64,000 nucleotides of DNA from contig JAQGDQ010000795.1 of assembly GCA_030141605.1 (NCBI GenBank), positions 1 through 64,000 on the forward strand, read 5' to 3'. The number at the start of each line of letters is the position of its first letter. Position 1 is the stretch's first letter. This document shows, piece after piece, positions 30,523 to 64,000 of this stretch. The position numbers were made by a program, and so were the translations under genes. Source of the stretch: Tubiluchus corallicola. Lineage: Eukaryota > Animalia > Priapulida. The notes beneath the pieces were generated by a model. It was given only the letters and a program-made list of their open reading frames with translations. It had not been told where the DNA came from and did not search any database.

Positions 30523-30578
<56 letters not shown>

Positions 30579-33500
30579 CAGGAGCAGCAGCAGAGCAGCA
30601 GCAGCAGCAGCAGGAGCAGCAGCAGCAGCAGCAGCAGCAGACAGCAGCAGGAGCAGAGCAGCAGCAGCAGCAGCAGCAGCAGGAGCAGCAGCAGCAGACA
30701 GCAGCAGGAGCAGAGCAGCAGCAGAGCAGACAGCAGCAGGAGCAGACAGCAGCAGAGCAGGAGCAGCAGCAGCAGCAGCAGCAGGAGCAGACAGCAGCAG
30801 GAGCAGAGCAGAGCAGACAGCAGCAGCAGGAGCAGCAGCAGTAGCAGCAGCAGCAGGAGCAGGAGCAGGAGCAGGAGCAGCAGCAGCAGCAGCAGGAGCA
30901 GCAGCAGCAGGAGCAGTAGCAGCAGGAGCAGCAGCAGGAGCAGCAGCAGCAGCAGTAGCAGCAGGAGCAGCAGCAGAGCAGCAGGAGCAGGAGCAGACAG
31001 CAGCAGCAGCAGCAGGACAGCAGCAGCAGCAGCAGGAGCAGCAGCAGAGGAGCAGCAGGAGGAGCAGCAGGAGCAGGAGCAGCAGCAGGAGCGGGAGCAG
31101 GAGCAGGAGCAGCAGCAGGAGCAGCAGCAGGAGCAGCAGCAGGAGCAGCAGGAGCAGTATCAGCAGCAGGATCAGGAGCAGTATCAGCAGCAGGAGCAGT
31201 ATCAGCAGCAGGAGCAGGAGCAGTATCAGCAGCAGGAGCAGGAGCAGTATCAGCAGCAGGAGCAGGAGCAGTAGCAGTAGTAATAGTAGTAGCAGGGGGT
31301 GTGTGGGGGAGAGTAGTAGTAGTAAGCAGCAGCAGAGAGTAGTAGTAGTAGTAGTAGGGGGGTGGGGGGTACACTGTTTAGATCTTGATTGATTTATTCA
31401 TCCATTTAGCACAATACAAAAATAAAAGTTATAAAATGACTAATTAACAGTGCATTACAGTGCAATGAGCTGTTCTTGGCAAATGCATCTGGTGCAAGCT
31501 AACCTATAAGCGCAACTAGAAATTTAAAACTATGAAACATCAACTACAAACACACAATGCACTACGATAAAACTACAGGCAATCTTTACTCTCTTTCTCT
31601 CATACATACATTTTCACGCTCGTGCTCACACACATGCACACACGCACACACACACCCCATCTTATAGTCTAGCAATGCTTTCAAATGGTTTAGTGATCTT
31701 TTATATGCATACATTTTCACGCGCGTGCTCACACACACGCACACATGCATGCGCACGCATGCACACATGCACACACACACACACACACACACACACCCCA
31801 TCTTATAGTCTAGCAAAGTTTTCAAATATTTTAGTAATCTTTTATATGCATACATTTTCACGCTCGTGCTCACACACACGCACACACACATGCGCGCGTG
31901 CATGCACACACGCACACACCCCATCTTATAGTCTAGCAAGGCTTTCAAATGGTTTAGTAATCTTTTATATGCATTTGTTTTTTTTGTGGATCATGGAGGA
32001 TTTTAAAATCCGGAGTCACAACTCCGCTCACCTTTGCTGGTGCCACTGCCGTTAGGATTCAAACTTTGCACCTGTTCATATCACAAATGCTTGCTTTAAG
32101 CTCACGGGTCTAAGTTTCTATGTGCAAAATAGATAAATGTTAACCCACAAGCCACGTCGTATCAGATTTTTGCAACCCTATCAGTCTGGAAAGTTTGCAT
32201 TACAAAGTTTTGCTAATGGTTGGCATATTTACCGATACTTGTTTGCTTCAATTCAAGTTCACTTATTACAGCAAACCAACAATAAATTATTTCACGTCCG
32301 GTTAAAACACACTTCCGCTGACAAAACCACATGGAATTTACAGCTGATTTTTGCAGGGTTCCCCTTGGTAATAAAGTTATTAAATGTGTGAAGAAAAGAA
32401 TGTGATGCTATAAATGCTTGAAGAAAAACCAGACTCAATCTTATACCATAGCTCACGAAATGGAGCAATTTTTCACATTTGACTTGCATGAAAGAATTAT
32501 TACCACACAAACACAATTTCATGTTTGCGCCACTAGTTCTTTGCTGTTACATACATTTCACTATTCGCTAGATAGACGGTCACTAGCACTCGCATCTCGG
32601 AAATGTGGTGCACAAAAACAGGTGCTGTACCTCTCAGTTCAGACGTGTTCAGTTGTGATGTGGCACACACGTCTGAGAGCTCATGCGTGAGCACTGCAGA
32701 TAGACTTAAAACTTGAATTTTTAAGCCTAAAATTTGCCAATTTTTTATATACCACACTGAATGGTTTACAGTAGCACTGCACTCCAATTTTTACTTTTTC
32801 TAAACATTTGTAAACATTGAAAATGCTAGTAGAATGTTGTGACGTCCACTGTGAGGTTTGTTGCCACACTAAATGCCTTTCATCACCACTTTAATTTAAC
32901 ATCCTCATCACCTCCTGCTTTTTCACCGCTTCCCGATAGGGATGAGAATGACAAATTGCAAAAAAACTCTGAAACAGGCCGGGGGTTTGGAGGCCGCGTA
33001 GCCCCATTGGGGTTCAAGGGGTCCAAGGCGAAACCCCCTTGAAGCCAGCAAAAAATTGCAATTTTGTGATCATAGAGAGCCTCTAAGTGGACTTAAAATA
33101 TCAGTTACCTTGTTTCATGCATAATTTAAAATACGCAACTATCAAGGATGCATGATACCTAATTGTCTCAAAAACGCCTAAGTACTGGCCGCTCCTTTAT
33201 GCAAAAGTATATAAAAACTGTCTGCAATTGATTCAAATAACTCTGCACAATTGATTCTATAATTTTATTACATAGAGATCTACACGTAGTTACATTGATG
33301 TACGTGATGTAAACAAAGTGACGGCCTGCCAACTAGTGGTCAGCTTGTGAAATAATGTACTGGGTCCGTAAAAATTTTCTCAACAAATTTACACGATTTA
33401 CAAAATTGTCCCTACTGGTCTTCCAAAAACTCGGAATTCCGCGATTTGCCATTATAGCTCCCAGCTTCATACAAAAAAATATTTTTTAACGATAGGGCAC

Positions 33501-36500
33501 ACATAGCAAGCCTAGCTAATTTGTTGCCAACATTTTTTGCAGATATATTGCGGACATTGGAATTTCACTCAATCCGTGGATTTTGCGGATGCGGATAAAC
33601 GAGAAAGCGGAGTAGGGGGATTTGATAAAAATTCCGTGCTGGAAATGGCCCATAATACAATACAGTGGAACCTCGACTTATGAAAACCCTATTATACGAA
33701 GAATTCAGAATACGAATAAATTTCCGTCCCATTTAAAGGAAAAATATTCAAGATGCGAAAACGAAAATTGCAAGTGCCGCCCGACAGCCGTCCTCCCAGA
33801 ATGCATTTCGTAGCATCACGTGAATGATGCTACATCACAGCATCACCTTGCTCTCACACACCGTACCAAAAAGCTCCCGTCCATTGTCTTGTGTCTTCGT
33901 GCCGTGTATTTCTAGTAAATTTGTGTTAATTTGCATCCAGTAACCATGGGTCCGAAAAAAGCAAGTGGCAGTGATAGTGATAAGAAGAAAAAGATGATGT
34001 CGACGGAAACGAAGCATGAAATTATAGCTAAATATGAAAGTGGCATGCATTTAACTGCTATCTCAAGGAAGTATGAGCGTAACCCTTCATTAACGAACAT
34101 ATTCTTTTCGGGTGGGTACAATATTTACACTTTATATGACTGTTTTCGGGGTGGGGGGTGTTGGAACAAATTACACCATTCACATATACGAAAGCCCCAA
34201 CGAAATGAATTAATTTCGTATCTCGAGGTATTCACCGTACTTTACGATTAAATTGAAAGTTCATGCAACACGCAACAGCACATTTTGCAATTTTGTCGCA
34301 ACTGAGCTTCGCCTCGCTGCTGCTACAATCAGACCACTAAAATTAAAAACTACTCACTATATTTAGAACAACCTCTCGTCAGTTGACATCTCAGGCCTTC
34401 TTGACTATGATAGTAGAAGTCTATCAGCTGGAAAAATACAATACACCTTGAGCACAGACATGTTATAAGTAAATGAAGAACCTACTCTGCTTAACCCTTT
34501 AACTACGGAAGGTGACACAGTCGGCTCGTGTGCGCACACGCACGTGTGTGTGTGTGTGTGTGTGTGTCTGCGTGTGCAAGTGTGCTCGCATTTGTGTCAA
34601 TAACGAACAACTATTTGTTTATTTACAAGATTCTGTTTTAGTAACACACCACAAGACATTATTGTCAAATATGCAAAAGTCAATGTGGCCGTGTTAAAAA
34701 GCAATTATGTAGTGAAAGAGTTAAAGCTTAAAAAATTTGCTCTAAAATTACTTATCACTTACATTTTCGACTTGATTTATTAAAATAAGTGCAAAAACCA
34801 TTAATGTCGTGATATCTTATTGCATACGGAGCTTACGTTAGCAGTATCTCTGTACAAAACTTGTAAATCTAAACTCCCACAATGACTATTAGATGCAATG
34901 CAGCACTAGCTAACAAAAAAATCACAAAAATACTACTTCTTAATAAATTAGCATCTTAGTAACAAACAAGTTGTGCACTTGTTAGTAATTAAGCACAGAT
35001 TAAAAATGGTTACCAAGACAAGAGCCTCGCAGACCGAAGCCGAGTTTTCCAGCGAGAATCCGGCATCAGATTTTTCAATTTTGTAATGCCGGACGTCACT
35101 GCCATAAGCCATCGTCAAAACGAACGCGTCCTCGCGTTTCTGCCTCACCCTGAAAAGGGACGAAATCTTTTCTGTAGCACTTTCTGGAGAAATCATCTGC
35201 CGAAATGAAGAAAGTGTGACTCTAGGTTGATTTAAGACACCCTAACTGGTTTAAGAACAAGCAGTTTAACCTGACGAAAGTAGAGAACCAAAAGTACATC
35301 AATTCTTCCTGATACAGGAAGTACAGTAAAATACATACATTAAATCGTTTTGAAAACCGTACATACGTAAACGATAATATATATTCATCCGCAAATTTCT
35401 TTTACCCACATCCATTTTAATTTGTATGTATATATTGTATATTTACTCACATCCATGTATATGTAGTATATAGTCTATTATAATTTTCGTGTAACATTAT
35501 AATGTATATTTTGTTTTAAATTTTTGGCACAGTAGTTTTTAGTTTGCACATGACGCATTTGCCTTTAACAGTTGTGTGAATTTTATAATCATGTTGCGAT
35601 GTTCTTTTATGTTTTATAGTTATGAATATCAATTTTTTTATAGCAAATAAAGATTATTTTATATATGTATGTATATATAAATAGTAATACAGTAAATTAT
35701 GTGTCTCTCAAAGTCAATTTATTCAATTTTTTGCGTAACTCAAACAATTTCAGTGCAATGGATTGAAATCCTTCGTTTTTTCCATAAAAAAACCACGGCT
35801 TAACTACAAATCTTCCCTAACTCAAATAAAAAATTATTACTGTAAACTATGGGTAACTGAAAATAGCATAGCTCAAATTTTCGCCTATCTGAAACAACGA
35901 AATCTATTGTTTTTCCCTCATAAAACATTGCTTCACTTTAAACATATAACTGAAACTTTCACCTAACTCAAATAAAAAGTTATGATCCATTTAATCAAAA
36001 TACGTGTAATTCACTTCGCCTAACTAAAAAATGCAATTTAGAAAAACAAAAAGTTTCGTACAACTCAAAAACAGTATGGTCTTCCGGGAAAATTTTTACC
36101 CCCCAACACTACAAGTGTCATCAAATCTCCTTGTTTATGCACAGAAGGGTTGACTTTCTGCCTTCTATTTAGCTCGCCATCTGGAGGAGGGGTTTAGAGT
36201 GTCTATGCTGGAAAATGGCCAATACTGCCTAACTCAAAATATCACCCCTAACCTAAAGTTTTTTTCAGTCCAGCTGGACTTGAATTATGCGGAGTTTACT
36301 GTAGTTACATCAGTAAATCAGGATAAAATATACTTCCCGTAAAAATATCCTCGTGCAAGTATATTTCGAAAGCGATTCAAATGCTGGTATTATTACTGAG
36401 GGAAACCAGATAATTGTGTAAACACGAGTTTAGAATAAGGAATGCCCTAAAATATTGAAAACTACAATAGCTCATTTTAAATCAAAGCTTAGATTAAATA

Positions 36501-39500
36501 ATAATTACTTCGAATACTCAAATTTCGTTAAACTTTCAAAGCTACGCGCAGCTCAGTGAATCTAGTAAGATTGCGGCCTGCTGTGTGGGTGCTGGTGTAA
36601 AACGACACAAACACATGTAATTTTAATGTTGTGATTGTGAGCGACAGCACTTTCTCTACCTAGCAGCAGGCGCTAGCAGCGCAGTGTACAGCGTATTAAC
36701 TCAGGCATGTACACATTGGCTCATGCATTTAACAACCAAACACACCACTGTGCTGGGCTGTGAAGCAAACAATACAACCCTCACGTGCTCTGGTGCCATG
36801 CAATTATAAAGAAAAAACTAAAGAAAAAAGACTATTGAATATTATGGATTTATTATTTGAATATCATAAATAATATTGAATGAAAATAGGGGGTGCTTCA
36901 GTTCCACCGTACCTATACAGGAGCCACCACTGTATATCGTCATGACAACCAGCTGTAAACACTAATTTATCATCTCTGTACAGCTGTTCTGGAACAGTGA
37001 TATGCGCGCAGGTAATAAATGGCATGTAGTAAGAAAGTCAATCATAAGAACAATGTATCAAATAAGGCATTAAAACCGAGACTCACAGAAAGAGACCATT
37101 TTCTAAACCGTCCTGGTGTAATCGTTCTTCAGCCTCCTCCCTGCCTATATCACCGTGAAACCATTCCATATGCTCATGAAAGTGACTGAGAATCGCCCTG
37201 ATGTTATTTGAGTTGAACTAGAATGGCAAAACGTGCAAACTTGAGTCCAACGGGAAAACTTAATGCCGAACAATTATCCAAAAAGGGGGGTTAGAAAACC
37301 ACAGAAATCATTTAGAAATTTCGTGACCGTGAAACCACTACTGAACGGTAGGGGTGAGCATTCTCTACCAGAAAGTGAATTCGAATCGAACCGAATTTGT
37401 GACTTTCGAATTCGAATCGAACTGAACTTCAGTGTTTCGAATTCGATGCGAATTCGAATTGAGACTGAAAGATTTTCGAACAAGTTTTCGAACCACCAGT
37501 AAAAATTAGTCTTACAAAGATCATGCATATCACTCGATTTTGTTCTGCAATAAAACGACTAGTAATTTGTTTAAAATTGTGCACAGAAATCACAGCTAAA
37601 TTATGCTAATTGCATGATGTTTCAATCGTTTTAGTGATAAAGAACATGTGTGATTGAAGTGCTGAATTATTCGAATCTATAGTTTTGGATTCGAATCGAG
37701 TTCGAACTGAAAAACTCGTTCGAATCGAATTCGAGCGTTCGATGCTCACCCTTACTGAACGGTATTTACGAAATCACAGTGCCACTCGCACTGTCGCGTA
37801 CAACAAAAGATGCCGTTTGGTAAAAAACAACGGTTCCATTTATTGTTGAAAGCAATGTGTACCGATTGCTCTGCTTCATTACAAGCAGGTGATAGTTATT
37901 TGATCTTACTGCATTGAGATACATTATTACATTCTGTCTTAGTACATTAAATCAAATTGCCAAGCTGGCACAGGGCCAAGTCGCAGTGTTGCATAATTAT
38001 AGCCCCAACTTTCGGTACAATAATAAGCATTTTTGCAGTTTCATTGTGTGCACGTGCAGTTCCTGCAGGTCAAAGGCTAAGTGTATCATAGCAATGCGTC
38101 TTAACTACAACTGTGACGTGTGGGTAAAACAAAGACAACTGCTGCATCAGTTCAGTAACATCAGTTATTTTCTGTGGACATTACTTAATTATCCATTAGT
38201 CTGTACGTAGACTGATTTATTAGCAGGATCTTGCTTGGGAACAAGAAAAAATGAACTAGGTAAGGTTCTAGCTAACTGTTAAAACTGTTACTATTACAAT
38301 AGCTTAGGCTGCGAGGCATTATCAAGTGTACACAAATGCATTGTCTGGTACACTTAACCTTTGACTTTCACGATTATCATCAATTGCTGGAACTGTGAAA
38401 AGGCTTAATATGCTTATTCATTTTCACAATCTAAATTACAGTCAAAGCTCTTTATACCATGCCATTTGGACCACAAAAATTCGGCGTTAAGCGAATTTGG
38501 CATCACAACGAGTTGCATTAATACATACATGTCTATACAAATACAGTGAGTCCTCGCTTAACGATTCCCTGTTAAATGGCGTTTCGTTTTAATATTGCTG
38601 AACACTTGACACATTTTTCTCACTTGACGATGCACGTTTCGTTTTAACGACGATTTTTTAACTGCTGTCTATATACAGTTTTCAAGAGACCGCAAGCAAG
38701 TCTAGCTAGTCATTGGTGGCTTCTACTAAGAAAAATAGGTGCTTACAACCAAACAAAAAGAAATTAATCAGTAGAAATATGAATAAAACTCATAATATAA
38801 AATATGAATAGTAATTGACTTAAGCAGCATTGATTTTTGCCTCTGGAACGTATCTCACTTCTTTTACAAACTTTCTATGAAAGTCTTGGTTTCATTTAAC
38901 GGCATTTCGCTTAACGTTGCATTTTGCCGGAACGCACGAGCATCGTTAAGCAAAGACATACTGTATAGATGTTTTGTTTTGCCAAAAATGTGGGCGCAAA
39001 ATGAGCTTGGCATTGTTTGGTGTTATAATGACGTTTGGCTGTAGTGTTTTTCAGGGTTAATTTTAAATGCAACACAGACGATGGTAGGGAAGTTGAAATT
39101 TGCAATGAGAGCTCCAAGGAGTGCAGTATTTAGATCATCAATTTCTTCGCCTTTATCCCAACAAGCGGGAGTCAACTGCACCGATTACTTGCGCTGCACC
39201 AGCCAGCAGTCTCTGAACCTAAACTCTAAATTTCCTGGTCAATCCACTGTGCTACGGTTTACTGTTATACTCATGTTCTGATTCATCACCTCTAAGCCCA
39301 TCTTCTCAGCTACGTCCAAGATCATCTGGTCGGACACGGTCATGCTCATTCTGAACAGTCCCAACGGTTGTTCGCCCTCTTGTCTTTCGCACGGCATTCT
39401 TAGCGGTGTCACTAATCCTCCGTCGTCCATTCGAAGATGTTCCGTGAGCTCGACGGGACCCGGGTATGTTATTCCATTCTGTATTCCGAAATAACCATTT

Positions 39501-40926
39501 GCGTACTGCTTTATGTCATAGTGGTAGAACCTAGAAAATACAACGTGTGTTTATTAATGCAGGGATGAGAATGACAAATTGCAAAAAACTCTGAAACAGG
39601 TTGGAGGTTTGGGGGCCGCGTAGGCCCCCATGGCAGTTCAAGGGGGGCGAAGACCCCTTGGAACCAGCAACAAATTACAATTTTGTGACCATAGAGAGCC
39701 TCTAAGTAGACTTAAAATATCAATTACCTTGTTTCATGCATAATTTAAAATACCCAACTATCAAGGATACATGATACCTAATTGTCTCAAAAATGAATAA
39801 GGACTGGCCGCTCCTATGCAAAAGTATATAAAAACTGTCTGCAATTGACTCAAATAACTCCGCATAATTGATTCTATATTTTTATACATAGAGATATACA
39901 CGTGGTTACACTGATGTACGTGATGTAAACAAAGTGACGGCCTGCCAACTAGCGGTCAGTTTGTGAAATAATGTACTGGTCCGTAAAAATTTTCTTAACA
40001 AATTTACGCGATTTTCAAAAATGGCACTACTGGTCTTCCAAAAACTGGGAATTCTGCGTATCCGCGGAAAATTCTCATCCCTGTTAATGTTGTAACTGTT
40101 AGAAATAAATCCACTATCCGATGCATAAGATCAGTTGCTAATAGTAACTTATAATAAAAAACATTTTAATTGGTAATATTTCAAAATAAATCCACACTAC
40201 TTTACAGCAATTTTATGCGTATATCGTGCACAAGTTGAAATGATATTTTGTTTCAATTTTAAATTTCTCGCGATACTGTTCCGACGGCGCCATTACATGA
40301 CGTCACCTATATACAACATAAATCAGGTGAAGAAAAGGAAATATTAAACTATGTCCCAAAAAACTTTCCATGCAAAATTATATTACTTAGCATTTTCCTT
40401 ACCTGCTGGAAAGGCTTATGTAACTAGACTAATAATTTAAAATGTTTGTGCCAATTGGCAAAATGTCGCTGACTTACCCTCCAGGGTGCGTCACTCACTA
40501 GCCAAGAGAAGGTATCGTTAACGTTATTGACAAGATACAGTAATTTAAAATTTTACTTAGTTAGTGACTTATCGTCAAAATGGCTGCACCTGATGGTTAT
40601 CACGGAAGTTTAAATTTACATGTTTTATACAGCGTTACTGCCAACGCAAGCCCTGCATGCAGAAAGGCAGTATGTAAGCGGCATAAATTTCAAGACGAAT
40701 TTTTTAAGCTCTATGTAAGTGGAGGGTTTTCTCATTGTACTAACTGATGCCCATAGCACATGGAGAGAGCATAGTGTTCGTATTCCAAAAGCCTCTGACG
40801 AAGAAGAAACAGTCCGTCTACCGCCCGATTTTCTATCAGTATCTGTTCCGACTCGGCCCTGCTCCTCTTTCCAAAAAAATAAGTCTTCTCTTCCGGCGGG
40901 ATGACTCTTCTTGGCGGAGGCTGCAT
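15556..40926 (-). CDS. SYK: SYK/ZAP70-family tandem-SH2 non-receptor tyrosine kinase, copy 1 (spliced; coding exons 40745-40926, 39290-39530, 37087-37217, 35014-35149, 34358-34427, 29329-29415, 28679-28852, 25752-25836, 24488-24677, 22643-22783, 17473-17585, 15556-15625)
   Basis: All exons have GT-AG boundaries with consistent phases. N-SH2: [28 protein letters not shown]2: [25 protein letters not shown]. Kinase: [55 protein letters not shown]. No ankyrin repeats between the SH2 domains, so SYK-type rather than SHARK-type. Small linker exons may be missed. Confidence 0.92.
16310..16825. repeat. Dispersed repeat family; other copies ~3145-3640 (reverse) and ~32480-32850
   Basis: Shared blocks such as CCACTAGTTCTTCGCTGTTACAT, CAGGTGCTGTACCTCT and ATACGAAAAATCATCC. 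Confidence 0.75.
17473..17585 (-). CDS. SYK: SYK exon, kinase subdomains X-XI
   Basis: [37 protein letters not shown]; TATTTCAG / GTAAGT boundaries. Confidence 0.92.
18412..18774 (+). mobile_element. Solo LTR
   Basis: TGTTGTG...CACAACA termini, near-TSD AAAAT/CAAAT, internal TATA-like ATATAAG and AATAAA. Confidence 0.72.
19284..19625. mobile_element. hAT (Charlie-like) MITE nested in another dispersed repeat
   Basis: TIRs CAGTGGTTCCCAAACT / AGTTTGGGAACCACTG; perfect 8-bp TSD GTCTAAGG. Confidence 0.92.
19868..22580. repeat. ~79-bp tandem satellite, ~34 copies, in a SYK intron
   Basis: Unit GGGTTTGCAATTTCTTGTCGACAGTAACTCATAAAGCAGTTCACACTAGACAGTAAATCAATTCGCAGCAAGTGTGAGA, with 76-79 bp variants. 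Confidence 0.97.
22643..22783 (-). CDS. SYK: SYK exon, P+1 loop/subdomain IX
   Basis: [47 protein letters not shown]; donor GTAAGT. Confidence 0.94.
22965..23750. mobile_element. Possible non-autonomous Helitron-like element
   Basis: One end is ACTAGC..GGCCCCGC..GCG and the other is a TA microsatellite plus TTAATATATACGAT, a layout common in non-autonomous Helitrons. Confidence 0.35.
24488..24677 (-). CDS. SYK: SYK exon, catalytic and activation loops
   Basis: [63 protein letters not shown]. Confidence 0.94.
24840..25037. repeat. Near-perfect hairpin, 95-bp arms with an 8-nt loop
   Basis: 24840-24934 is the reverse complement of 24943-25037 with 2 mismatches. Confidence 0.95.
25038..25201. 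repeat. (TA)/(TATG) microsatellite
   Basis: Direct inspection. Confidence 0.9.
25752..25836 (-). CDS. SYK: SYK exon, kinase hinge
   Basis: [28 protein letters not shown]; TTTTCAG / GTGAGC boundaries. Confidence 0.9.
28679..28852 (-). CDS. SYK: SYK exon, kinase subdomains I-IV
   Basis: [59 protein letters not shown]. Confidence 0.92.
29074..29144 (-). pseudogene. tRNA-derived sequence (tRNA pseudogene or SINE head)
   Basis: The minus strand reads GCTGTGTGGTGTAGTAGTTGG...GAGTTCAAACCCCAC, with A- and B-box-like motifs; the stems are imperfect. Confidence 0.55.
29329..29415 (-). CDS. SYK: SYK exon, interdomain B end with YxxxY motif
   Basis: [28 protein letters not shown]; 87 nt, phase 1-1, joins in frame to the GRGNFG exon. 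Confidence 0.82.
29573..31357. repeat. Compound (CAG/GAG/TAG)n trinucleotide tract of ~1.8 kb; mirrored copy starts ~63623
   Basis: Direct inspection; interrupted by GAG, TAT and GAC variants. Confidence 0.97.
31600..31975. repeat. Three tandem units containing (CA)n; mirrored at ~62990-63380
   Basis: CCCCATCTTATAGTCTAGCAA...TTTTATATGCATACATTTTCACGC repeated three times. Confidence 0.88.
33663..34238 (+). mobile_element. Internally deleted Tigger/pogo element; mirror at 60726-61301
   Basis: TA-CAGTGGAACCTCGA terminus; remnant [30 protein letters not shown] resembles a CENP-B/psq-type HTH start. Confidence 0.78.
34358..34427 (-). CDS. SYK: SYK copy 1 exon, end of C-SH2
   Basis: [23 protein letters not shown], comparable to SYK [29 protein letters not shown] / GTGAGT boundaries. 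Confidence 0.85.
35014..35149 (-). CDS. SYK: SYK copy 1 exon, C-SH2 core
   Basis: [45 protein letters not shown]; acceptor CTTTTCAG, donor GTAACC. Confidence 0.88.
37087..37217 (-). CDS. SYK: SYK copy 1 exon, start of C-terminal SH2
   Basis: [44 protein letters not shown]; donor GTGAGT. Confidence 0.88.
37349..37754. mobile_element. hAT-type MITE rich in TTCGAA; relatives at ~3810-4100 and 42466-42852; mirror at 57210-57615
   Basis: TIRs TAGGGGTGAGCAT / ATGCTCACCCTTA; perfect 8-bp TSD CTGAACGG. Confidence 0.9.
39290..39530 (-). CDS. SYK: SYK copy 1 exon, end of N-SH2 and interdomain A
   Basis: [49 protein letters not shown]...MGLE. Acceptor TTTTCTAG; the donor GTGATG is weak, so the 3' boundary is less sure. 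Confidence 0.85.
39560..40083. mobile_element. hAT-like MITE; relative at ~32937-33450; mirror at 54881-55404
   Basis: TIRs CAGGGATGAGAAT / ATTCTCATCCCTG flanked by TTAATG on both sides. Confidence 0.85.
40745..40926 (-). CDS. SYK: SYK copy 1 first coding exon, N-terminal SH2 start
   Basis: [60 protein letters not shown]. Acceptor TTTTAACAG upstream (exon starts 40943), GCCATG start context, donor GTTAGT. Confidence 0.88.
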
Positions 40927-41108
40927 GGCGGAAGTTGCTCTTCCTGTTAAAACGAGAAATAATTAGGAAACCTCCCACGTTTTTCCTGTAGTCGAACGTG
41001 TCAAGTTTTGTTGACTTCAATCATTTTAATTATAATTATAACATTATTATATTATTAAAGCCAATTATAACTATAACATTATTATATTATTAAAGCCAAT
41101 TATAACTA

Positions 41109-41724
41109 CCGTATATACTCGCATATAAGCCTACATCGCATATAAGCCGTCCCCCTAAAACTGCTTTAAAATGGCCAGTTTTTGCAAAAACCCGTATATA
41201 AGCCGACCATCAACTTGTCTAATTTTACTCCATACCCAATCAACAAAATTGATCCCTTTTTGTCACATTTTGTTAATTGGGTATTTTTGGTTCATAGAAA
41301 TTTTTTACTATAAAGATGTAAAATGATTACTTTTATGTTACACACTAGAAGAAATAGAAGAAATTATACATTTTGATATGAATAAAGAAGAAAATATTTT
41401 GTTTTCTATTTATTCACAAAAAATTATAACATTTCTGTTTATAATTTAACGTTCTTAAAAATAATTAGAAACCTTCAAAATCATTGTCACTACCACCCTC
41501 ATCGTCTCTGTCTCAAACTTATAGAGTGTCTGATCCCCTCCAATACACCACTTGTGACACACAACCAAATAAAGTGTCAGATAGCGATGAAAATGTGTGG
41601 CTGGAAAATTGGCATTAGTGTCTGTCCTTGTGTTCGTTTTGTTTCATGCGCATATAAGCCGACCCCCTGATTTCAGTATTGTATTTTATAGTTCTAAATT
41701 CGGCTTATATGCGAGTATATACGG
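41109..41724. mobile_element. Tc1/mariner-superfamily (Tc2-like) MITE; mirror at 53240-53855
   Basis: TIRs CCGTATATACTCGCATATAAGCC / GGCTTATATGCGAGTATATACGG with TA TSD. Confidence 0.88.
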
Positions 41725-48180: not shown

Positions 48181-48226
<46 letters not shown>

Positions 48227-52900: not shown

Positions 52901-54037
52901 TGGGAAGAGGTACAGAAAAGTACACGTCTAGATACACCCTCGATCTGACTCAACTTCGACTGTAAGGGACGGTTTTTTGCGGTCCCGGATGTCTCTTATA
53001 TCCGAGGTTTACTATATTAATTTTTAGCAACATTAGATTATACCATTTATTTATTATTTATTAGGCACAAGAAATAAATAATAAATATATACATATACTA
53101 CGACAGCTGGGTCATAAATTACACTAAAATATGCCTAATTACAAAAAACATCTACACAAACATATAACAACTGCAATCATTAAACTAATAAAATGCCTCA
53201 ATTAAAGAATTAAAGCTTTAATAATATAATAATGTTATACCGTATATACTCGCATATAAGCCGAATTTAGAACTATAAAATACAATACTGAAATCAGGGG
53301 GTCGGCTTATATGCGCATGAAACAAAACGAACACAAGGACAGACACTAATGCCAATTTTCCAGCCACACATTTTCATCGCTATCTGACACTTTATTTGGT
53401 TGTGTGTCACAAGTGGTGTATTGGAGGGGATCAGACACTCTATAAGTTTGAGACAGAGACGATGAGGGTGGTAGTGACAATGATTTTGAAGGTTTCTAAT
53501 TATTTTTAAGAACGTTAAATTATAAACAGAAATGTTATAATTTTTTGTGAATAAATAGAAAACAAAATATTTTCTTCTTTATTCATATCAAAATGTATAA
53601 TTTCTTCTATTTCTTCTAGTGTGTAACATAAAAGTAATCATTTTACATCTTTATAGTAAAAAATTTCTATGAACCAAAAATACCCAATTAACAAAATGTG
53701 ACAAAAAGGGATCAATTTTGTTGATTGGGTATGGAGTAAAATTAGACAAGTTGATGGTCGGCTTATATACGGGTTTTTGCAAAAACTGGCCATTTTAAAG
53801 CAGTTTTAGGGGGACGGCTTATATGCGATGTAGGCTTATATGCGAGTATATACGGTAGTTATAATTGGCTTTAATAATATAATAATGTTATAGTTATAAT
53901 TGGCTTTAATAATATAATAATGTTATAATTATAATTAAAATGATTGAAGTCAACAAAACTTGACACGTTCGACTACAGGAAAAACGTGGGAGGTTTCCTA
54001 ATTATTTCTCGTTTTAACAGGAAGAGCAACTTCCGCC

Positions 54038-57000
54038 ATGCAGCCTCCGCCAAGAAGAGTCATCCCGCCGGAAGAGAAGACTTATTTTTTTGGAAAGAGG
54101 AGCAGGGCCGAGTCGGAACAGATACTGATAGAAAATCGGGCGGTAGACGGACTGTTTCTTCTTCGTCAGAGGCTTTTGGAATACGAACACTATGCTCTCT
54201 CCATGTGCTATGGGCATCAGTTAGTACAATGAGAAAACCCTCCACTTACATAGAGCTTAAAAAATTCGTCTTGAAATTTATGCCGCTTACATACTGCCTT
54301 TCTGCATGCAGGGCTTGCGTTGGCAGTAACGCTGTATAAAACATGTAAATTTAAACTTCCGTGATAACCATCAGGTGCAGCCATTTTGACGATAAGTCAC
54401 TAACTAAGTAAAATTTTAAATTACTGTATCTTGTCAATAACGTTAACGATACCTTCTCTTGGCTAGTGAGTGACGCACCCTGGAGGGTAAGTCAGCGACA
54501 TTTTGCCAATTGGCACAAACATTTTAAATTATTAGTCTAGTTACATAAGCCTTTCCAGCAGGTAAGGAAAATGCTAAGTAATATAACTTTGCATGGAAAG
54601 TTTTTTGGGACATAGTTTAATATTTCCTTTTCTTCACCTGATTTATGTTGTATATAGGTGACGTCATGTAATGGCGCCGTCGGAACAGTATCGCGAGAAA
54701 TTTAAAATTGAAACAAAATATCATTTCAACTTGTGCACGATATACGCATAAAATTGCTGTAAAGTAGTGTGGATTTATTTTGAAATATTACCAATTAAAA
54801 TGTTTTTTATTATAAGTTACTATTAGCAACTGATCTTATGCATCGGATAGTGGATTTATTTCTAACAGTTACAACATTAACAGGGATGAGAATTTTCCGC
54901 GGATACGCAGAATTCCCAGTTTTTGGAAGACCAGTAGTGCCATTTTTGAAAATCGCGTAAATTTGTTAAGAAAATTTTTACGGACCAGTACATTATTTCA
55001 CAAACTGACCGCTAGTTGGCAGGCCGTCACTTTGTTTACATCACGTACATCAGTGTAACCACGTGTATATCTCTATGTATAAAAATATAGAATCAATTAT
55101 GCGGAGTTATTTGAGTCAATTGCAGACAGTTTTTATATACTTTTGCATAGGAGCGGCCAGTCCTTATTCATTTTTGAGACAATTAGGTATCATGTATCCT
55201 TGATAGTTGGGTATTTTAAATTATGCATGAAACAAGGTAATTGATATTTTAAGTCTACTTAGAGGCTCTCTATGGTCACAAAATTGTAATTTGTTGCTGG
55301 TTCCAAGGGGTCTTCGCCCCCCTTGAACTGCCATGGGGGCCTACGCGGCCCCCAAACCTCCAACCTGTTTCAGAGTTTTTTGCAATTTGTCATTCTCATC
55401 CCTGCATTAATAAACACGCGTTGTATTTTCTAGGTTCTACCACTATGACATAAAGCAGTACGCAAACGGTTATTTCGGAATACAGAATGGAATAACATAC
55501 CCGGGTCCCGTCGAGCTCACGGAACATCTTCGAATGGACGACGGAGGATTAGTGACACCGCTAAGAATGCCGTGCGAAAGACAAGAGGGCGAACAACCGT
55601 TGGGACTGTTCAGAATGAGCATGACCGTGTCCGACCAGATGATCTTGGACGTAGCTGAGAAGATGGGCTTAGAGGTGATGAATCAGAACATGAGTATAAC
55701 AGTAAACCGTAACACAGTGGATTGACCAGGAAATTTAGAGTTTAGGCTCAGAGACTGCTGGCTGGTGCAGCGCAAGTAATCGGTGCAGTTGACTCCCGCT
55801 TGTTGGGATAAAGGCGAAGAAATTGATGATCTAAATACTGCACTCCTTGGAGCTCTCATTGCAAATTTCAACTTCCCTACCATCGTCTGTGTTGCATTTA
55901 AAATTAACCCTGAAAAACACTACAGCCAAACGTCATTATAACACCAAACAATGCCAAGCTCATTTTGCGCCCACATTTTTGGCAAAACAAAACATCTATA
56001 CAGTATGTCTTTGCTTAACGATGCTCGTGCGTTCCGGCAAAATGCAACGTTAAGCGAAATGCCGTTAAATGAAACCAAGACTTTCATAGAAAGTTTGTAA
56101 AAGAAGTGAGATACGTTCCAGAGGCAAAAATCAATGCTGCTTAAGTCAATTACTATTCATATTTTATATTATGAGTTTTATTCATATTTCTACTGATTAA
56201 TTTCTTTTTGTTTGGTTGTAAGCACCTATTTTTCTTAGTAGAAGCCACCAATGACTAGCTAGACTTGCTTGCGGTCTCTTGAAAACTGTATATAGACAGC
56301 AGTTAAAAAATCGTCGTTAAAACGAAACGTGCATCGTCAAGTGAGAAAAATGTGTCAAGTGTTCAGCAATATTAAAACGAAACGCCATTTAACAGGGAAT
56401 CGTTAAGCGAGGACTCACTGTATTTGTATAGACATGTATGTATTAATGCAACTCGTTGTGATGCCAAATTCGCTTAACGCCGAATTTTTGTGGTCCAAAT
56501 GGCATGGTATAAAGAGCTTTGACTGTAATTTAGATTGTGAAAATGAATAAGCATATTAAGCCTTTTCACAGTTCCAGCAATTGATGATAATCGTGAAAGT
56601 CAAAGGTTAAGTGTACCAGACAATGCATTTGTGTACACTTGATAATGCCTCGCAGCCTAAGCTATTGTAATAGTAACAGTTTTAACAGTTAGCTAGAACC
56701 TTACCTAGTTCATTTTTTCTTGTTCCCAAGCAAGATCCTGCTAATAAATCAGTCTACGTACAGACTAATGGATAATTAAGTAATGTCCACAGAAAATAAC
56801 TGATGTTACTGAACTGATGCAGCAGTTGTCTTTGTTTTACCCACACGTCACAGTTGTAGTTAAGACGCATTGCTATGATACACTTAGCCTTTGACCTGCA
56901 GGAACTGCACGTGCACACAATGAAACTGCAAAAATGCTTATTATTGTACCGAAAGTTGGGGCTATAATTATGCAACACTGCGACTTGGCCCTGTGCCAGC

Positions 57001-60000
57001 TTGGCAATTTGATTTAATGTACTAAGACAGAATGTAATAATGTATCTCAATGCAGTAAGATCAAATAACTATCACCTGCTTGTAATGAAGCAGAGCAATC
57101 GGTACACATTGCTTTCAACAATAAATGGAACCGTTGTTTTTTACCAAACGGCATCTTTTGTTGTACGCGACAGTGCGAGTGGCACTGTGATTTCGTAAAT
57201 ACCGTTCAGTAAGGGTGAGCATCGAACGCTCGAATTCGATTCGAACGAGTTTTTCAGTTCGAACTCGATTCGAATCCAAAACTATAGATTCGAATAATTC
57301 AGCACTTCAATCACACATGTTCTTTATCACTAAAACGATTGAAACATCATGCAATTAGCATAATTTAGCTGTGATTTCTGTGCACAATTTTAAACAAATT
57401 ACTAGTCGTTTTATTGCAGAACAAAATCGAGTGATATGCATGATCTTTGTAAGACTAATTTTTACTGGTGGTTCGAAAACTTGTTCGAAAATCTTTCAGT
57501 CTCAATTCGAATTCGCATCGAATTCGAAACACTGAAGTTCAGTTCGATTCGAATTCGAAAGTCACAAATTCGGTTCGATTCGAATTCACTTTCTGGTAGA
57601 GAATGCTCACCCCTACCGTTCAGTAGTGGTTTCACGGTCACGAAATTTCTAAATGATTTCTGTGGTTTTCTAACCCCCCTTTTTGGATAATTGTTCGGCA
57701 TTAAGTTTTCCCGTTGGACTCAAGTTTGCACGTTTTGCCATTCTAGTTCAACTCAAATAACATCAGGGCGATTCTCAGTCACTTTCATGAGCATATGGAA
57801 TGGTTTCACGGTGATATAGGCAGGGAGGAGGCTGAAGAACGATTACACCAGGACGGTTTAGAAAATGGTCTCTTTCTGTGAGTCTCGGTTTTAATGCCTT
57901 ATTTGATACATTGTTCTTATGATTGACTTTCTTACTACATGCCATTTATTACCTGCGCGCATATCACTGTTCCAGAACAGCTGTACAGAGATGATAAATT
58001 AGTGTTTACAGCTGGTTGTCATGACGATATACAGTGGTGGCTCCTGTATAGGTACGGTGGAACTGAAGCACCCCCTATTTTCATTCAATATTATTTATGA
58101 TATTCAAATAATAAATCCATAATATTCAATAGTCTTTTTTCTTTAGTTTTTTCTTTATAATTGCATGGCACCAGAGCACGTGAGGGTTGTATTGTTTGCT
58201 TCACAGCCCAGCACAGTGGTGTGTTTGGTTGTTAAATGCATGAGCCAATGTGTACATGCCTGAGTTAATACGCTGTACACTGCGCTGCTAGCGCCTGCTG
58301 CTAGGTAGAGAAAGTGCTGTCGCTCACAATCACAACATTAAAATTACATGTGTTTGTGTCGTTTTACACCAGCACCCACACAGCAGGCCGCAATCTTACT
58401 AGATTCACTGAGCTGCGCGTAGCTTTGAAAGTTTAACGAAATTTGAGTATTCGAAGTAATTATTATTTAATCTAAGCTTTGATTTAAAATGAGCTATTGT
58501 AGTTTTCAATATTTTAGGGCATTCCTTATTCTAAACTCGTGTTTACACAATTATCTGGTTTCCCTCAGTAATAATACCAGCATTTGAATCGCTTTCGAAA
58601 TATACTTGCACGAGGATATTTTTACGGGAAGTATATTTTATCCTGATTTACTGATGTAACTACAGTAAACTCCGCATAATTCAAGTCCAGCTGGACTGAA
58701 AAAAACTTTAGGTTAGGGGTGATATTTTGAGTTAGGCAGTATTGGCCATTTTCCAGCATAGACACTCTAAACCCCTCCTCCAGATGGCGAGCTAAATAGA
58801 AGGCAGAAAGTCAACCCTTCTGTGCATAAACAAGGAGATTTGATGACACTTGTAGTGTTGGGGGGTAAAAATTTTCCCGGAAGACCATACTGTTTTTGAG
58901 TTGTACGAAACTTTTTGTTTTTCTAAATTGCATTTTTTAGTTAGGCGAAGTGAATTACACGTATTTTGATTAAATGGATCATAACTTTTTATTTGAGTTA
59001 GGTGAAAGTTTCAGTTATATGTTTAAAGTGAAGCAATGTTTTATGAGGGAAAAACAATAGATTTCGTTGTTTCAGATAGGCGAAAATTTGAGCTATGCTA
59101 TTTTCAGTTACCCATAGTTTACAGTAATAATTTTTTATTTGAGTTAGGGAAGATTTGTAGTTAAGCCGTGGTTTTTTTATGGAAAAAACGAAGGATTTCA
59201 ATCCATTGCACTGAAATTGTTTGAGTTACGCAAAAAATTGAATAAATTGACTTTGAGAGACACATAATTTACTGTATTACTATTTATATATACATACATA
59301 TATAAAATAATCTTTATTTGCTATAAAAAAATTGATATTCATAACTATAAAACATAAAAGAACATCGCAACATGATTATAAAATTCACACAACTGTTAAA
59401 GGCAAATGCGTCATGTGCAAACTAAAAACTACTGTGCCAAAAATTTAAAACAAAATATACATTATAATGTTACACGAAAATTATAATAGACTATATACTA
59501 CATATACATGGATGTGAGTAAATATACAATATATACATACAAATTAAAATGGATGTGGGTAAAAGAAATTTGCGGATGAATATATATTATCGTTTACGTA
59601 TGTACGGTTTTCAAAACGATTTAATGTATGTATTTTACTGTACTTCCTGTATCAGGAAGAATTGATGTACTTTTGGTTCTCTACTTTCGTCAGGTTAAAC
59701 TGCTTGTTCTTAAACCAGTTAGGGTGTCTTAAATCAACCTAGAGTCACACTTTCTTCATTTCGGCAGATGATTTCTCCAGAAAGTGCTACAGAAAAGATT
59801 TCGTCCCTTTTCAGGGTGAGGCAGAAACGCGAGGACGCGTTCGTTTTGACGATGGCTTACGGCACTGACGTCCGGCATTACAAAATTGAAAAATCTGATG
59901 CCGGATTCTCGCTGGAAAACTCGGCTTCGGTCTGCGAGGCTCTTGTCTTGGTAACCATTTTTAATCTGTGCTTAATTACTAACAAGTGCACAACTTGTTT

Positions 60001-60606
60001 GTTACTAAGATGCTAATTTATTAAGAAGTAGTATTTTTGTGATTTTTTTGTTAGCTAGTGCTGCATTGCATCTAATAGTCATTGTGGGAGTTTAGATTTA
60101 CAAGTTTTGTACAGAGATACTGCTAACGTAAGCTCCGTATGCAATAAGATATCACGACATTAATGGTTTTTGCACTTATTTTAATAAATCAAGTCGAAAA
60201 TGTAAGTGATAAGTAATTTTAGAGCAAATTTTTTAAGCTTTAACTCTTTCACTACATAATTGCTTTTTAACACGGCCACATTGACTTTTGCATATTTGAC
60301 AATAATGTCTTGTGGTGTGTTACTAAAACAGAATCTTGTAAATAAACAAATAGTTGTTCGTTATTGACACAAATGCGAGCACACTTGCACACGCAGACAC
60401 ACACACACACACACACACACGTGCGTGTGCGCACACGAGCCGACTGTGTCACCTTCCGTAGTTAAAGGGTTAAGCAGAGTAGGTTCTTCATTTACTTATA
60501 ACATGTCTGTGCTCAAGGTGTATTGTATTTTTCCAGCTGATAGACTTCTACTATCATAGTCAAGAAGGCCTGAGATGTCAACTGACGAGAGGTTGTTCTA
60601 AATATA
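54038..60606 (+). CDS. SYK: SYK/ZAP70-family kinase copy 2, partial (exons 54038-54219, 55434-55674, 57747-57877, 59815-59950, 60537-60606); kinase exons would lie beyond the window
   Basis: Mirror image of copy 1 with intact frames and splice sites. One amino-acid difference spotted (YGSD vs YGTD). Confidence 0.85.
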
Positions 60607-63165
60607 GTGAGTAGTTTTTAATTTTAGTGGTCTGATTGTAGCAGCAGCGAGGCGAAGCTCAGTTGCGACAAAATTGCAAAATGTGCTGTTGCGTGTTGCA
60701 TGAACTTTCAATTTAATCGTAAAGTACGGTGAATACCTCGAGATACGAAATTAATTCATTTCGTTGGGGCTTTCGTATATGTGAATGGTGTAATTTGTTC
60801 CAACACCCCCCACCCCGAAAACAGTCATATAAAGTGTAAATATTGTACCCACCCGAAAAGAATATGTTCGTTAATGAAGGGTTACGCTCATACTTCCTTG
60901 AGATAGCAGTTAAATGCATGCCACTTTCATATTTAGCTATAATTTCATGCTTCGTTTCCGTCGACATCATCTTTTTCTTCTTATCACTATCACTGCCACT
61001 TGCTTTTTTCGGACCCATGGTTACTGGATGCAAATTAACACAAATTTACTAGAAATACACGGCACGAAGACACAAGACAATGGACGGGAGCTTTTTGGTA
61101 CGGTGTGTGAGAGCAAGGTGATGCTGTGATGTAGCATCATTCACGTGATGCTACGAAATGCATTCTGGGAGGACGGCTGTCGGGCGGCACTTGCAATTTT
61201 CGTTTTCGCATCTTGAATATTTTTCCTTTAAATGGGACGGAAATTTATTCGTATTCTGAATTCTTCGTATAATAGGGTTTTCATAAGTCGAGGTTCCACT
61301 GTATTGTATTATGGGCCATTTCCAGCACGGAATTTTTATCAAATCCCCCTACTCCGCTTTCTCGTTTATCCGCATCCGCAAAATCCACGGATTGAGTGAA
61401 ATTCCAATGTCCGCAATATATCTGCAAAAAATGTTGGCAACAAATTAGCTAGGCTTGCTATGTGTGCCCTATCGTTAAAAAATATTTTTTTGTATGAAGC
61501 TGGGAGCTATAATGGCAAATCGCGGAATTCCGAGTTTTTGGAAGACCAGTAGGGACAATTTTGTAAATCGTGTAAATTTGTTGAGAAAATTTTTACGGAC
61601 CCAGTACATTATTTCACAAGCTGACCACTAGTTGGCAGGCCGTCACTTTGTTTACATCACGTACATCAATGTAACTACGTGTAGATCTCTATGTAATAAA
61701 ATTATAGAATCAATTGTGCAGAGTTATTTGAATCAATTGCAGACAGTTTTTATATACTTTTGCATAAAGGAGCGGCCAGTACTTAGGCGTTTTTGAGACA
61801 ATTAGGTATCATGCATCCTTGATAGTTGCGTATTTTAAATTATGCATGAAACAAGGTAACTGATATTTTAAGTCCACTTAGAGGCTCTCTATGATCACAA
61901 AATTGCAATTTTTTGCTGGCTTCAAGGGGGTTTCGCCTTGGACCCCTTGAACCCCAATGGGGCTACGCGGCCTCCAAACCCCCGGCCTGTTTCAGAGTTT
62001 TTTTGCAATTTGTCATTCTCATCCCTATCGGGAAGCGGTGAAAAAGCAGGAGGTGATGAGGATGTTAAATTAAAGTGGTGATGAAAGGCATTTAGTGTGG
62101 CAACAAACCTCACAGTGGACGTCACAACATTCTACTAGCATTTTCAATGTTTACAAATGTTTAGAAAAAGTAAAAATTGGAGTGCAGTGCTACTGTAAAC
62201 CATTCAGTGTGGTATATAAAAAATTGGCAAATTTTAGGCTTAAAAATTCAAGTTTTAAGTCTATCTGCAGTGCTCACGCATGAGCTCTCAGACGTGTGTG
62301 CCACATCACAACTGAACACGTCTGAACTGAGAGGTATAGCACCTGTTTTTGTGCACCACATTTCCGAGATGCGAGTGCTAGTGACCGTCTATCTAGCGAA
62401 TAGTGAAATGTATGTAACAGCAAAGAACTAGTGGCGCAAACATGAAATTGTGTTTGTGTGGTAATAATTCTTTCATGCAAGTCAAATGTGAAAAATTGCT
62501 CCATTTCGTGAGCTATGGTATAAGATTGAGTCTGGTTTTTCTTCAAGCATTTATAGCATCACATTCTTTTCTTCACACATTTAATAACTTTATTACCAAG
62601 GGGAACCCTGCAAAAATCAGCTGTAAATTCCATGTGGTTTTGTCAGCGGAAGTGTGTTTTAACCGGACGTGAAATAATTTATTGTTGGTTTGCTGTAATA
62701 AGTGAACTTGAATTGAAGCAAACAAGTATCGGTAAATATGCCAACCATTAGCAAAACTTTGTAATGCAAACTTTCCAGACTGATAGGGTTGCAAAAATCT
62801 GATACGACGTGGCTTGTGGGTTAACATTTATCTATTTTGCACATAGAAACTTAGACCCGTGAGCTTAAAGCAAGCATTTGTGATATGAACAGGTGCAAAG
62901 TTTGAATCCTAACGGCAGTGGCACCAGCAAAGGTGAGCGGAGTTGTGACTCCGGATTTTAAAATCCTCCATGATCCACAAAAAAAACAAATGCATATAAA
63001 AGATTACTAAACCATTTGAAAGCCTTGCTAGACTATAAGATGGGGTGTGTGCGTGTGTGCATGCACGCGCGCATGTGTGTGTGCGTGTGTGTGAGCACGA
63101 GCGTGAAAATGTATGCATATAAAAGATTACTAAAATATTTGAAAACTTTGCTAGACTATAAGATG

Positions 63166-63211
<46 letters not shown>

Positions 63212-64000
63212 ATGTGTGCATGCGTGCGCATGCATGTGTGTGTGTGTGAGCACGCGCGTGAAAATGTATGCATATAAAAGATCACTAAACCATTTGAAAG
63301 CATTGCTAGACTATAAGATGGGGTGTGTGTGTGCGCGTGTGTGCATGTGTGTGAGCACGAGCGTGAAAATGTATGTATGAGAGAAAGAGAGTAAAGATTG
63401 CCTGTAGTTTTATCGTAGTGCATTGTGTGTTTGTAGTTGATGTTTCATAGTTTTAAATTTCTAGTTGCGCTTATAGGTTAGCTTGCACCAGATGCATTTG
63501 CCAAGAACAGCTCATTGCACTGTAATGCACTGTTAATTAGTCATTTTATAACTTTTATTTTTGTATTGTGCTAAATGGATGAATAAATCAATCAAGATCT
63601 AAACAGTGTACCCCCCACCCCCCTACTACTACTACTACTACTCTCTGCTGCTGCTTACTACTACTACTCTCCCCCACACACCCCCTGCTACTACTATTAC
63701 TACTGCTACTGCTCCTGCTCCTGCTGCTGATACTGCTCCTGCTCCTGCTGCTGATACTGCTCCTGCTCCTGCTGCTGATACTGCTCCTGCTGCTGATACT
63801 GCTCCTGTCCTGCTGCTGATACTGCTCCTGCTGCTCCTGCTGCTGCTCCTGCTGCTGCTCCTGCTGCTGCTCCTGCTCCTGCTCCGCTCCTGCTGCTGCT
63901 CCTGCTCCTGCTGCTCTCTGCTGCTCTCTCTGCTGCTGCTCCTGCTGCTGCTGCTGCTGTCCTGCTCCTGCTGCTGCTGTTCCTGCTCCTGCTCCTGCTG

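What the first reader, a model, noticed from the sequence alone, without database searches (positions are those of the whole stretch)
31000..64000. Giant palindrome creating two head-to-head SYK/ZAP70 kinase genes
Seen: arms of at least 14.5 kb are reverse complements around a ~3.9-kb unique spacer. The mirror sum stays at 94964 with no net indel from ~31850 to 45546. Each arm carries the putative promoter and both SH2 domains with intact frames and splice sites, pointing outward. Known: SYK/ZAP70 kinases read phosphorylated ITAMs in immune and phagocytic signalling, and gene-bearing palindromes maintained by arm-to-arm conversion are known from mammalian sex chromosomes. Inference: this may be a young or conversion-maintained palindromic duplication of an immune kinase in an invertebrate. 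If the right arm stops before the kinase exons, copy 2 would encode an SH2-only decoy.
Basis: partly seen in the sequence, partly recalled or inferred. Interest (0 to 1): 0.85.

Follow-up and report, generated by a model that had tools for sequence, protein, structure and literature searches.

The report
SYK palindrome is likely assembly error
An intact immune-signalling kinase gene of the SYK/ZAP70 type appears twice in mirror image in this assembly, but a deep public sequencing run that matches this DNA shows one copy's worth of depth and only one of the two junctions, so the giant palindrome is likely an assembly error that laid two alleles of one gene head to head.

Summary
The mirror is in the assembly: arms 30979-45546 and 49418-64000, 99.73% identical, 10 substitutions and no indel over 13,769 bp. 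The left arm starts a complete 12-exon, 539-aa SYK/ZAP70-type gene; the right arm repeats its first five coding exons. Public data argue against a fixed duplication. In deep run X1, seven arm contigs have depth 172-193 against 168 for the one listed spacer contig (ratio 1.07, not 2). One contig runs unbroken through the right junction; none covers the left. The left junction is the derived one, with an inverted microhomology 3.9 kb from its partner. Locally the left arm is closer to that sample's sequence than to the right arm, so the arms behave like alleles. Best reading (0.68): false duplication, two haplotypes joined through a fold-back molecule or through the spacer's satellite. Main rival (0.25): a real private or polymorphic fold-back duplication. 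No reads are tied to the assembled animal. The SH2-only decoy has no support. The scan has met similar giant palindromes in other genomes.

The parts
30979..45546 (-). Left arm of the mirror as far as the window can show it; carries the 5' half of the complete gene; its inner end is the derived junction
49418..64000 (+). Right arm, running off the window inside the AGC minisatellite intron; contiguous with the spacer in run X1
   Evidence: X1 contig 49214-50548
15556..40926 (-). Complete SYK/ZAP70-type gene model, 12 coding exons, 539 aa: 40926-40745, 39530-39290, 37217-37087, 35149-35014, 34427-34358, 29415-29329, 28852-28679, 25836-25752, 24677-24488, 22783-22643, 17585-17473, 15625-15556
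   Evidence: all introns GT-AG, open frame; SH2, SH2, tyrosine kinase; collinear with ZAP70
54038..60606 (+). Mirror copy of coding exons 1-5 (both SH2 domains): 54038-54219, 55434-55674, 57747-57877, 59815-59950, 60537-60606; one residue change (S202T)
45538..45557 (+). Left junction: arm passes into the satellite at an imperfect inverted microhomology with 49412-49426 (8 of 9 bases, then 6 more after a 2-base gap)
   Evidence: 12 of 20,000 random sites score as high; not covered by any contig
45538..47524 (+). 51-bp satellite, about 39 units, first half of the spacer; deletion-rich units at 46400-46673
47525..49417 (.). Non-satellite half of the spacer, with a decayed LINE-like reverse-transcriptase tail at about 48880-49290 (label from recalled motifs)
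   Evidence: present in runs X1 and X3
49379..49491 (+). 54-bp tandem pair (86% alike) that straddles the right arm's inner edge; whole on the right, cut off on the left, which marks the right junction as ancestral
29578..31277 (+). AGC-rich minisatellite in the intron after coding exon 5; its mirror starts at about 63700 and leaves the window
44977..45220 (-). Candidate non-coding first exon and promoter region (donor at 44977/44976; ETS-like motif, recalled); untested

Best explanation
The locus is likely a single-copy SYK/ZAP70-type kinase gene, and the palindrome is likely a false duplication in which the assembly reads one allele leftwards and the other allele rightwards from a shared hinge. 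Shown: the right junction (spacer into arm) exists in a deep public run, the arm there has the spacer's depth, and the left junction carries an inverted microhomology. Inferred: a DNA strand copied leftwards through arm, unique spacer and satellite; its 3' end in the satellite paired with the look-alike 54-bp repeat 3.9 kb back and primed a reverse copy of the arm. That template switch gave the assembler a bridge, either as a chimeric library molecule (about 0.40) or as one breakpoint of a heterozygous structural allele that was joined to the normal allele through the satellite (about 0.28). The 10 arm differences would then be heterozygous sites. The gene itself is predicted to work as other SYK kinases do: tandem SH2 domains dock on doubly phosphorylated ITAM-like tails and release the kinase domain (from family knowledge; not tested).
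For: Depth: X1 contigs in the arm 173.8, 172.4, 180.0, 183.3, 179.3, 182.8 and, across the right junction, 192.8; spacer contig 168.1; mean ratio 1.07; a doubled arm predicts about 310 for the junction contig. X3 (second sample, low depth): spacer 5.8, four of five arm pieces 3.9-6.0. Low-repeat bins spacer against arm: X2 1.17 against 1.22, X3 3.51 against 3.40. Junctions: in X1 one contig alone covers 44900-45523, then leaves the left arm at 45546 with 204 loose letters that begin as the right-hand spacer does; every satellite piece listed starts at 45538 or later; 0 of 4 runs bridge the left junction. Runs X1 and X3 both show the satellite joined at 45543 to another flank that is not in the window. 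Alleles: at 6 of the 10 arm-difference sites covered by listed X1 contigs, X1 has the left letter at 5 and the right at 1; over 55381-56129 the X2 contig differs from the left arm at 1 site while the arms differ at 4. An X3 contig begins and ends exactly beside two arm-difference sites (55419-55746), as expected if both letters occur there. Microhomology is beyond chance and lies on the primer side of the switch. Inverted joins under 10 kb apart with short complementarity are the commonest amplification chimera (PMC1855051), and such reads create false inverted duplications in assemblies (PMC6218980).
Against: No read set is tied to the assembled animal. X1 carries letters found in neither arm at six listed sites, so sample S1 may be another animal that simply lacks a real duplication. 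Only one X1 spacer contig is listed and it includes 45 satellite bases. The X1 bin comparison gives 147.9 (spacer) against 216.1 (arm), a ratio of 1.46, though that spacer bin is 23.5% GC with a skipped repeat and bins sum all contigs. One X3 arm piece has depth 16.8. The tool warns that depth is no copy number and that a hole proves nothing; contig simplification could trim a branch into a high-copy satellite (my knowledge). A 3.9-kb spacer with microhomology fits real fold-back duplications equally well (median 3,428 bp in PMC3907307). Whether the DNA was amplified is unknown. Nine of 10 differences are transitions, so they are real variants, not read errors.
Confidence: 0.68

Rival explanations
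1. A real, recent inverted duplication, private to the assembled animal or polymorphic, made in the germ line by fold-back or template switching at the microhomology; the arms differ because the switch used the homologous chromosome or because an arm later exchanged with a single-copy allele. It would give two intact SYK copies on one chromosome.
For: Spacer size and inverted microhomology match human fold-back duplications (PMC3907307 passages). The window has no N gap. S1 has letters in neither arm and may be another animal. The X3 contig ends beside two arm-difference sites fit paralogous variants as well as heterozygosity. Differences cluster (4 gaps of 100 bp or less, p = 0.0013), as conversion patches would.
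Against: Absent from S1 by depth and junction. X3, which matches the window at 49909 where X1 does not, also shows about equal arm and spacer depth, weakly. A fresh copy should have identical arms, yet the left arm is locally closer to S1's sequence than to the right arm. A stable chromosome needs a second junction, which is not in the window.
Confidence: 0.25
2. One reading: a fixed palindrome of two SYK genes kept alike by arm-to-arm gene conversion, possibly confined to a sex chromosome that sample S1 lacks.
For: Arms above 10 kb and above 99% identical, as in mammalian sex-chromosome palindromes (abstracts). Clustered differences. The sex of the sampled animals is unknown.
Against: A fixed autosomal palindrome predicts arm depth twice the spacer's and a branch at the inner edge in every animal; X1 shows neither. 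The arms are not each other's closest sequences locally. The derived junction still carries its microhomology and the spacer's satellite edge is sharp, which looks recent.
Confidence: 0.06
3. The right copy ends before the kinase exons and makes an SH2-only dominant-negative protein.
For: Only exons 1-5 of the right copy are in the window.
Against: The arm leaves the window inside an intron, still mirroring. The right copy is the one contiguous with the ancestral upstream DNA. No stop or alternative end was seen.
Confidence: 0.01

Closest known systems
SYK/ZAP70 family non-receptor tyrosine kinases (vertebrate SYK and ZAP70; amphioxus, mollusc, annelid, cnidarian SYK; PMC13344425 passages)
   Same: SH2 - interdomain A - SH2 - linker - tyrosine kinase, no ankyrin repeats; 41% identical to a crane ZAP70 over 554 columns; kinase domain about 48-53% identical to invertebrate SYKs.
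   Different: Very short linker between C-SH2 and kinase (about 25 aa; a missed exon is not excluded) and a long branch (2.0 changes per column) with no supported placement.
False duplications in long-read assemblies: haplotype duplications (10.1101/2020.05.22.110833 passages) and palindromic chimeras after whole-genome amplification (PMC1855051 abstract and passages; PMC6218980 passages)
   Same: Inverted join under 10 kb with short complementarity; two near-identical copies with allele-like differences; single-copy depth.
   Different: The published haplotype duplications I read about are tandem or separate contigs, not head to head; use of amplification here is unknown.
Fold-back inverted duplications with a single-copy spacer (Hermetz et al. 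2014, PMC3907307 passages)
   Same: [quoted passage not shown]
   Different: Those junctions were confirmed in patients' DNA and come with a second junction; here the junction was found in 0 of 4 runs and the arms differ at 10 sites.
Conversion-maintained palindromes of mammalian X and Y chromosomes (PMC8600007, PMC3723533, PMC8327919; search listing and start of abstract only)
   Same: Arms above 10 kb and above 99% identical around a spacer, carrying a gene.
   Different: Those arms have twice single-copy depth (PMC6218980 passage on gorilla Y) and are shared by individuals; here neither holds in the deep run.

Membership tests
SYK/ZAP70 kinases | Two SH2 domains in tandem with the phosphotyrosine-binding arginine | tested here: met
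   Pfam SH2 on exons 1, 3 and 4; exon 2 best matches ZAP70 then SYK; LLRQ at 41 and LVRQ at 185
SYK/ZAP70 kinases | Interdomain A without ankyrin repeats (unlike SHARK) | tested here: met
   The model aligns collinearly with ZAP70 from N-SH2 to C-SH2; homologues hit no further exon there. Stop-free frames in that intron reach 94 codons and were not scanned against Pfam.
SYK/ZAP70 kinases | Intact tyrosine kinase domain with paired activation-loop tyrosines | tested here: met
   Pfam PK_Tyr_Ser-Thr on 3 of the 4 kinase exons scanned; G-loop, VAVK, HRDL, DFG, DYY and WPLKWYAPE present; left copy only
SYK/ZAP70 kinases | Placement inside the SYK clade against SHARK | tested here: inconclusive
   Quick tree of 45 rows, long branch, no supported group, and no ankyrin-bearing SHARK among the rows
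SYK/ZAP70 kinases | Binds phosphorylated ITAMs and is expressed in immune cells | not testable with these tools
   No RNA holder listed; no binding assay
Conversion-maintained gene palindrome | Arms above 10 kb and above 99% identical around a spacer | tested here: met
   (in the assembly)
Conversion-maintained gene palindrome | Arm depth twice the spacer's | tested here: not met
   X1 ratio 1.07 by contig; weakly the same in X3; neither run is tied to the assembled animal
Conversion-maintained gene palindrome | Both inner junctions present in other individuals | tested here: not met
   Right junction bridged in X1; left junction in 0 of 4 runs, of which only X1 covers the place
Conversion-maintained gene palindrome | Arms closer to each other than to allelic copies | tested here: not met
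   55381-56129: left arm against X2 contig 1 difference, arm against arm 4; one short stretch, and contigs can be mosaics
Fold-back inverted duplication (in vivo) | Inverted microhomology at the spacer's far end and a spacer of a few kb | tested here: met
Fold-back inverted duplication (in vivo) | Junction present in the animal's unamplified DNA, plus a second distal junction | not testable with these tools
   No raw reads of the assembled animal; no whole genome held
Amplification or library fold-back chimera | Junction confined to one read or one library; amplified input | not testable with these tools
   Library descriptions not on record

The most novel reading that the evidence does not exclude
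The structure is real in the assembled animal: a young, polymorphic or sex-limited fold-back palindrome, primed by a satellite end on a 54-bp repeat and built from two different alleles, that puts two intact SYK kinase genes head to head. It would be a SYK copy-number variant caught at birth in an invertebrate, with its priming site still readable.
Probability: 0.27. Interest if true: 0.45.

Novelty: not a real feature. Interest (0 to 1): 0.14.

Why it matters
If the best reading holds, the value is cautionary: an annotation would count two SYK genes here, and the record needs breaking at the satellite. The gene itself is an ordinary but divergent new SYK family member. If the rival holds, it is a known kind of rearrangement (fold-back with spacer) acting on an immune kinase, which would allow a dosage test; one full-text search for Syk + palindrome + duplication + invertebrate found 0 papers, which is a narrow search in a partial library.

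Tried and rejected
No whole genome is held, so the sequence beyond 64000 and the outer end of the mirror could not be read. No RNA holder was listed; this says nothing on expression. X2, X3 and X4 have no cover at 45097-45537 or beside the left junction, so they do not test it. Two X3 pieces (depth 605.9 and 14.5 with 20 other letters) were set aside as repeat copies before comparing depth. Summed bin depths are dominated by dispersed repeats in most bins and were used only for two low-repeat bins. Homologue search with exon 2 gave 0 of 20 candidates. The kinase-exon search found no close relative (best about 70% identity), so the taxon was not established; an earlier AI note calls the genome a likely priapulid, which my tree neither supports nor excludes. 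A purely computational overlap at the junction was rejected: 8 of 9 matching bases are too few for an assembler overlap. Sequencing error as the source of the arm differences was rejected (9 of 10 transitions, letters shared with other runs). Three of 10 differences fall in coding exons (p = 0.015), but two of them are 5 bp apart, so I draw nothing from it. No higher-order structure splits the satellite into two halves (longest exact repeat 176 bp). No other palindrome note exists among 17 notes on this genome. Supplements were not read; none is expected to bear on the verdict.

Full report
OBSERVATION. The window aligns to its own reverse complement over 14,589 columns at 99.733% (30979-45546 against 64000-49418). 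The mirror sum 94964 is ungapped from 31770 to 45538 (13,769 bp) with 10 substitutions at left positions 32627, 35099, 35104, 39217, 39252, 39497, 39546, 40377, 43768 and 43852; nine are transitions. That is 0.073% divergence (95% interval 0.035-0.134%). Indels occur only in CA and AGC repeats near the outer end. The window has no N. The spacer is half satellite: about 39 units of 51 bp at 45538-47524, then 1.9 kb with a decayed LINE-like tail (label recalled).

THE GENE. On the minus strand 12 coding exons from 40926 to 15556, all with GT-AG introns, give an open frame of 539 aa. It aligns end to end with a ZAP70 (41% over 554 columns, E 9e-145). Exon 2 matches ZAP70 and SYK structures best; Pfam finds SH2 on 3 and a tyrosine kinase on 3 of 8 exon pieces scanned; catalytic and SH2 motifs are intact. 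There is no ankyrin insert, so it is SYK-type, not SHARK (distinction from PMC13344425, passages). Kinase-domain identity to invertebrate SYKs is about 48-53%. A quick tree of 45 rows leaves it on a long branch with no supported group. The right arm repeats coding exons 1-5 with one residue change; its remaining exons would lie at about 65.5-79.4 kb, outside the window.

WHICH JUNCTION IS NEW. A 54-bp tandem pair (86% alike) straddles the right arm's inner edge at 49379-49491 and is whole there; the left arm stops inside its second unit and passes into the satellite. At that point the satellite start matches the continuation of the 54-bp unit at 8 of 9 bases and 6 more after a 2-base gap; 12 of 20,000 random sites score as high, and 41 of 2,000 if the best of all 51 satellite phases is allowed. 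The match lies on the side that a leftward-growing strand would already have made, so it fits a 3' end folding back over a 3.9-kb loop (inference). So the right junction is ancestral and the left is derived by a template switch. Both real fold-back duplications (spacer median 3,428 bp, 2-8 bp microhomology; PMC3907307 passages) and amplification chimeras (over 85% inverted, most under 10 kb apart, 2-21 nt complementarity; PMC1855051 abstract and passages) leave this mark, so it does not decide between them.

PUBLIC RUNS. Six runs were listed; four that hold the stretch were laid (X1, X2, X4 from sample S1; X3 from S2). All are contigs, with one depth figure each, and the tables are cut. In X1 the 8 listed pieces give 168.1 for the spacer (47480-47838), 192.8 across the right junction (49214-50548) and 172.4-183.3 for six arm pieces. 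The seven arm-containing pieces average 180.6, ratio 1.07; a doubled arm predicts about 310 for the junction piece, and a heterozygous duplication about 250 for arm pieces. In X3 the spacer piece has 5.8 and five arm pieces 3.9, 6.0, 4.5, 5.31 and 16.8 (two repeat-like pieces set aside). Low-repeat bins, spacer against arm: X2 1.17 and 1.22, X3 3.51 and 3.40, X4 0 and 0, X1 147.9 and 216.1; the last runs against my reading but compares a 23.5% GC bin with a skipped repeat to a bin that sums several contigs. On the left junction, X1 depth is exactly 192.8 from 44900 to 45523, one contig, which leaves at 45546 with 204 loose letters that begin as the right-hand spacer does. All listed satellite pieces start at 45538 or later. 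No run bridges the left junction; only X1 covers the place. X1 and X3 both show the satellite joined at 45543 to a flank absent from the window, which may be the true upstream neighbour or another array.

ALLELES. Listed X1 pieces cover 6 of the 10 arm-difference sites: left letter at 5, right letter at 1; X2 agrees at the 4 it covers. Over 55381-56129 the X2 contig differs from the left arm at 1 site and the arms from each other at 4. X1 also has letters in neither arm at six listed sites, four of which X2 reads as the window does, so S1 is polymorphic and may not be the assembled animal. An X3 contig spans 55419-55746, ending beside two arm-difference sites, which suggests both letters occur in S2. 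The differences cluster in pairs within 100 bp (p = 0.0013), which fits haplotype patches, short-read polishing or conversion tracts alike. Five deletion-rich satellite units at 46400-46673 look like poorly supported consensus and could mark a seam; this is a hint only.

READING. The simplest account of equal depth, one missing junction and allele-like arms is one gene, two haplotypes and a false head-to-head join (0.68), through a chimeric fold-back molecule or through the satellite at a heterozygous structural allele. False duplications are among the commonest assembly errors (10.1101/2020.05.22.110833 passages) and amplification palindromes create false inverted duplications (PMC6218980 passages). 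A real private or polymorphic duplication stays open (0.25) because no reads are tied to the assembled animal. A fixed, conversion-kept palindrome is contradicted in S1 unless it is sex-limited (0.06). The decoy has no support (0.01).

NOVELTY AND SCORE. The kinase is a new, divergent member of a known family; the palindrome is probably not a feature of the genome and, if real, is a known kind. Earlier AI notes of this scan report several similar giant palindromes in other animal genomes, mostly unconfirmed by reads; I used them only as a lead to one paper. Interest 0.14.

Noticed in passing
window 660-4960, minus strand: Exons of an arginine/serine-rich protein gene (an ATG-started frame at about 4930 and a further RS-rich frame at 680-975), downstream of the kinase gene and in the same direction; resembles RSRC1-type proteins (recalled, not searched).
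   Followed up: partly
window 29329-34427: The linker between C-SH2 and the kinase is only about 25 residues in the model but keeps a two-tyrosine motif that aligns with the regulatory linker tyrosines of ZAP70; many invertebrate SYKs have a far longer linker. A missed exon in the 5-kb intron is possible.
   Followed up: partly
window 19863-22580: A 79-bp satellite of about 35 units (96% alike) fills an intron of the kinase domain and starts about 60 bp after the exon's donor.
   Followed up: partly
window 45543 (runs X1 and X3): The 51-bp satellite is joined in two samples to a flank that is not in the window; candidate for the true upstream neighbour of this array.
   Followed up: partly
window 9230-9490, plus strand: Frameshifted remnant of a Tc1/mariner-like transposase end (label from a recalled motif).
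   Followed up: no
window 11860-12700, minus strand: Decayed gypsy-like retroelement pieces (protease to reverse-transcriptase region; label recalled).
   Followed up: no
window 24840-25037: A 198-bp near-perfect hairpin (95% self-complementary) in an intron, likely a MITE.
   Followed up: no
window 32938-33443 and 39561-40058: A 500-bp dispersed repeat at 90% identity occurs twice in each arm; much of the arm's intron DNA is high-copy repeat in the public runs.
   Followed up: no
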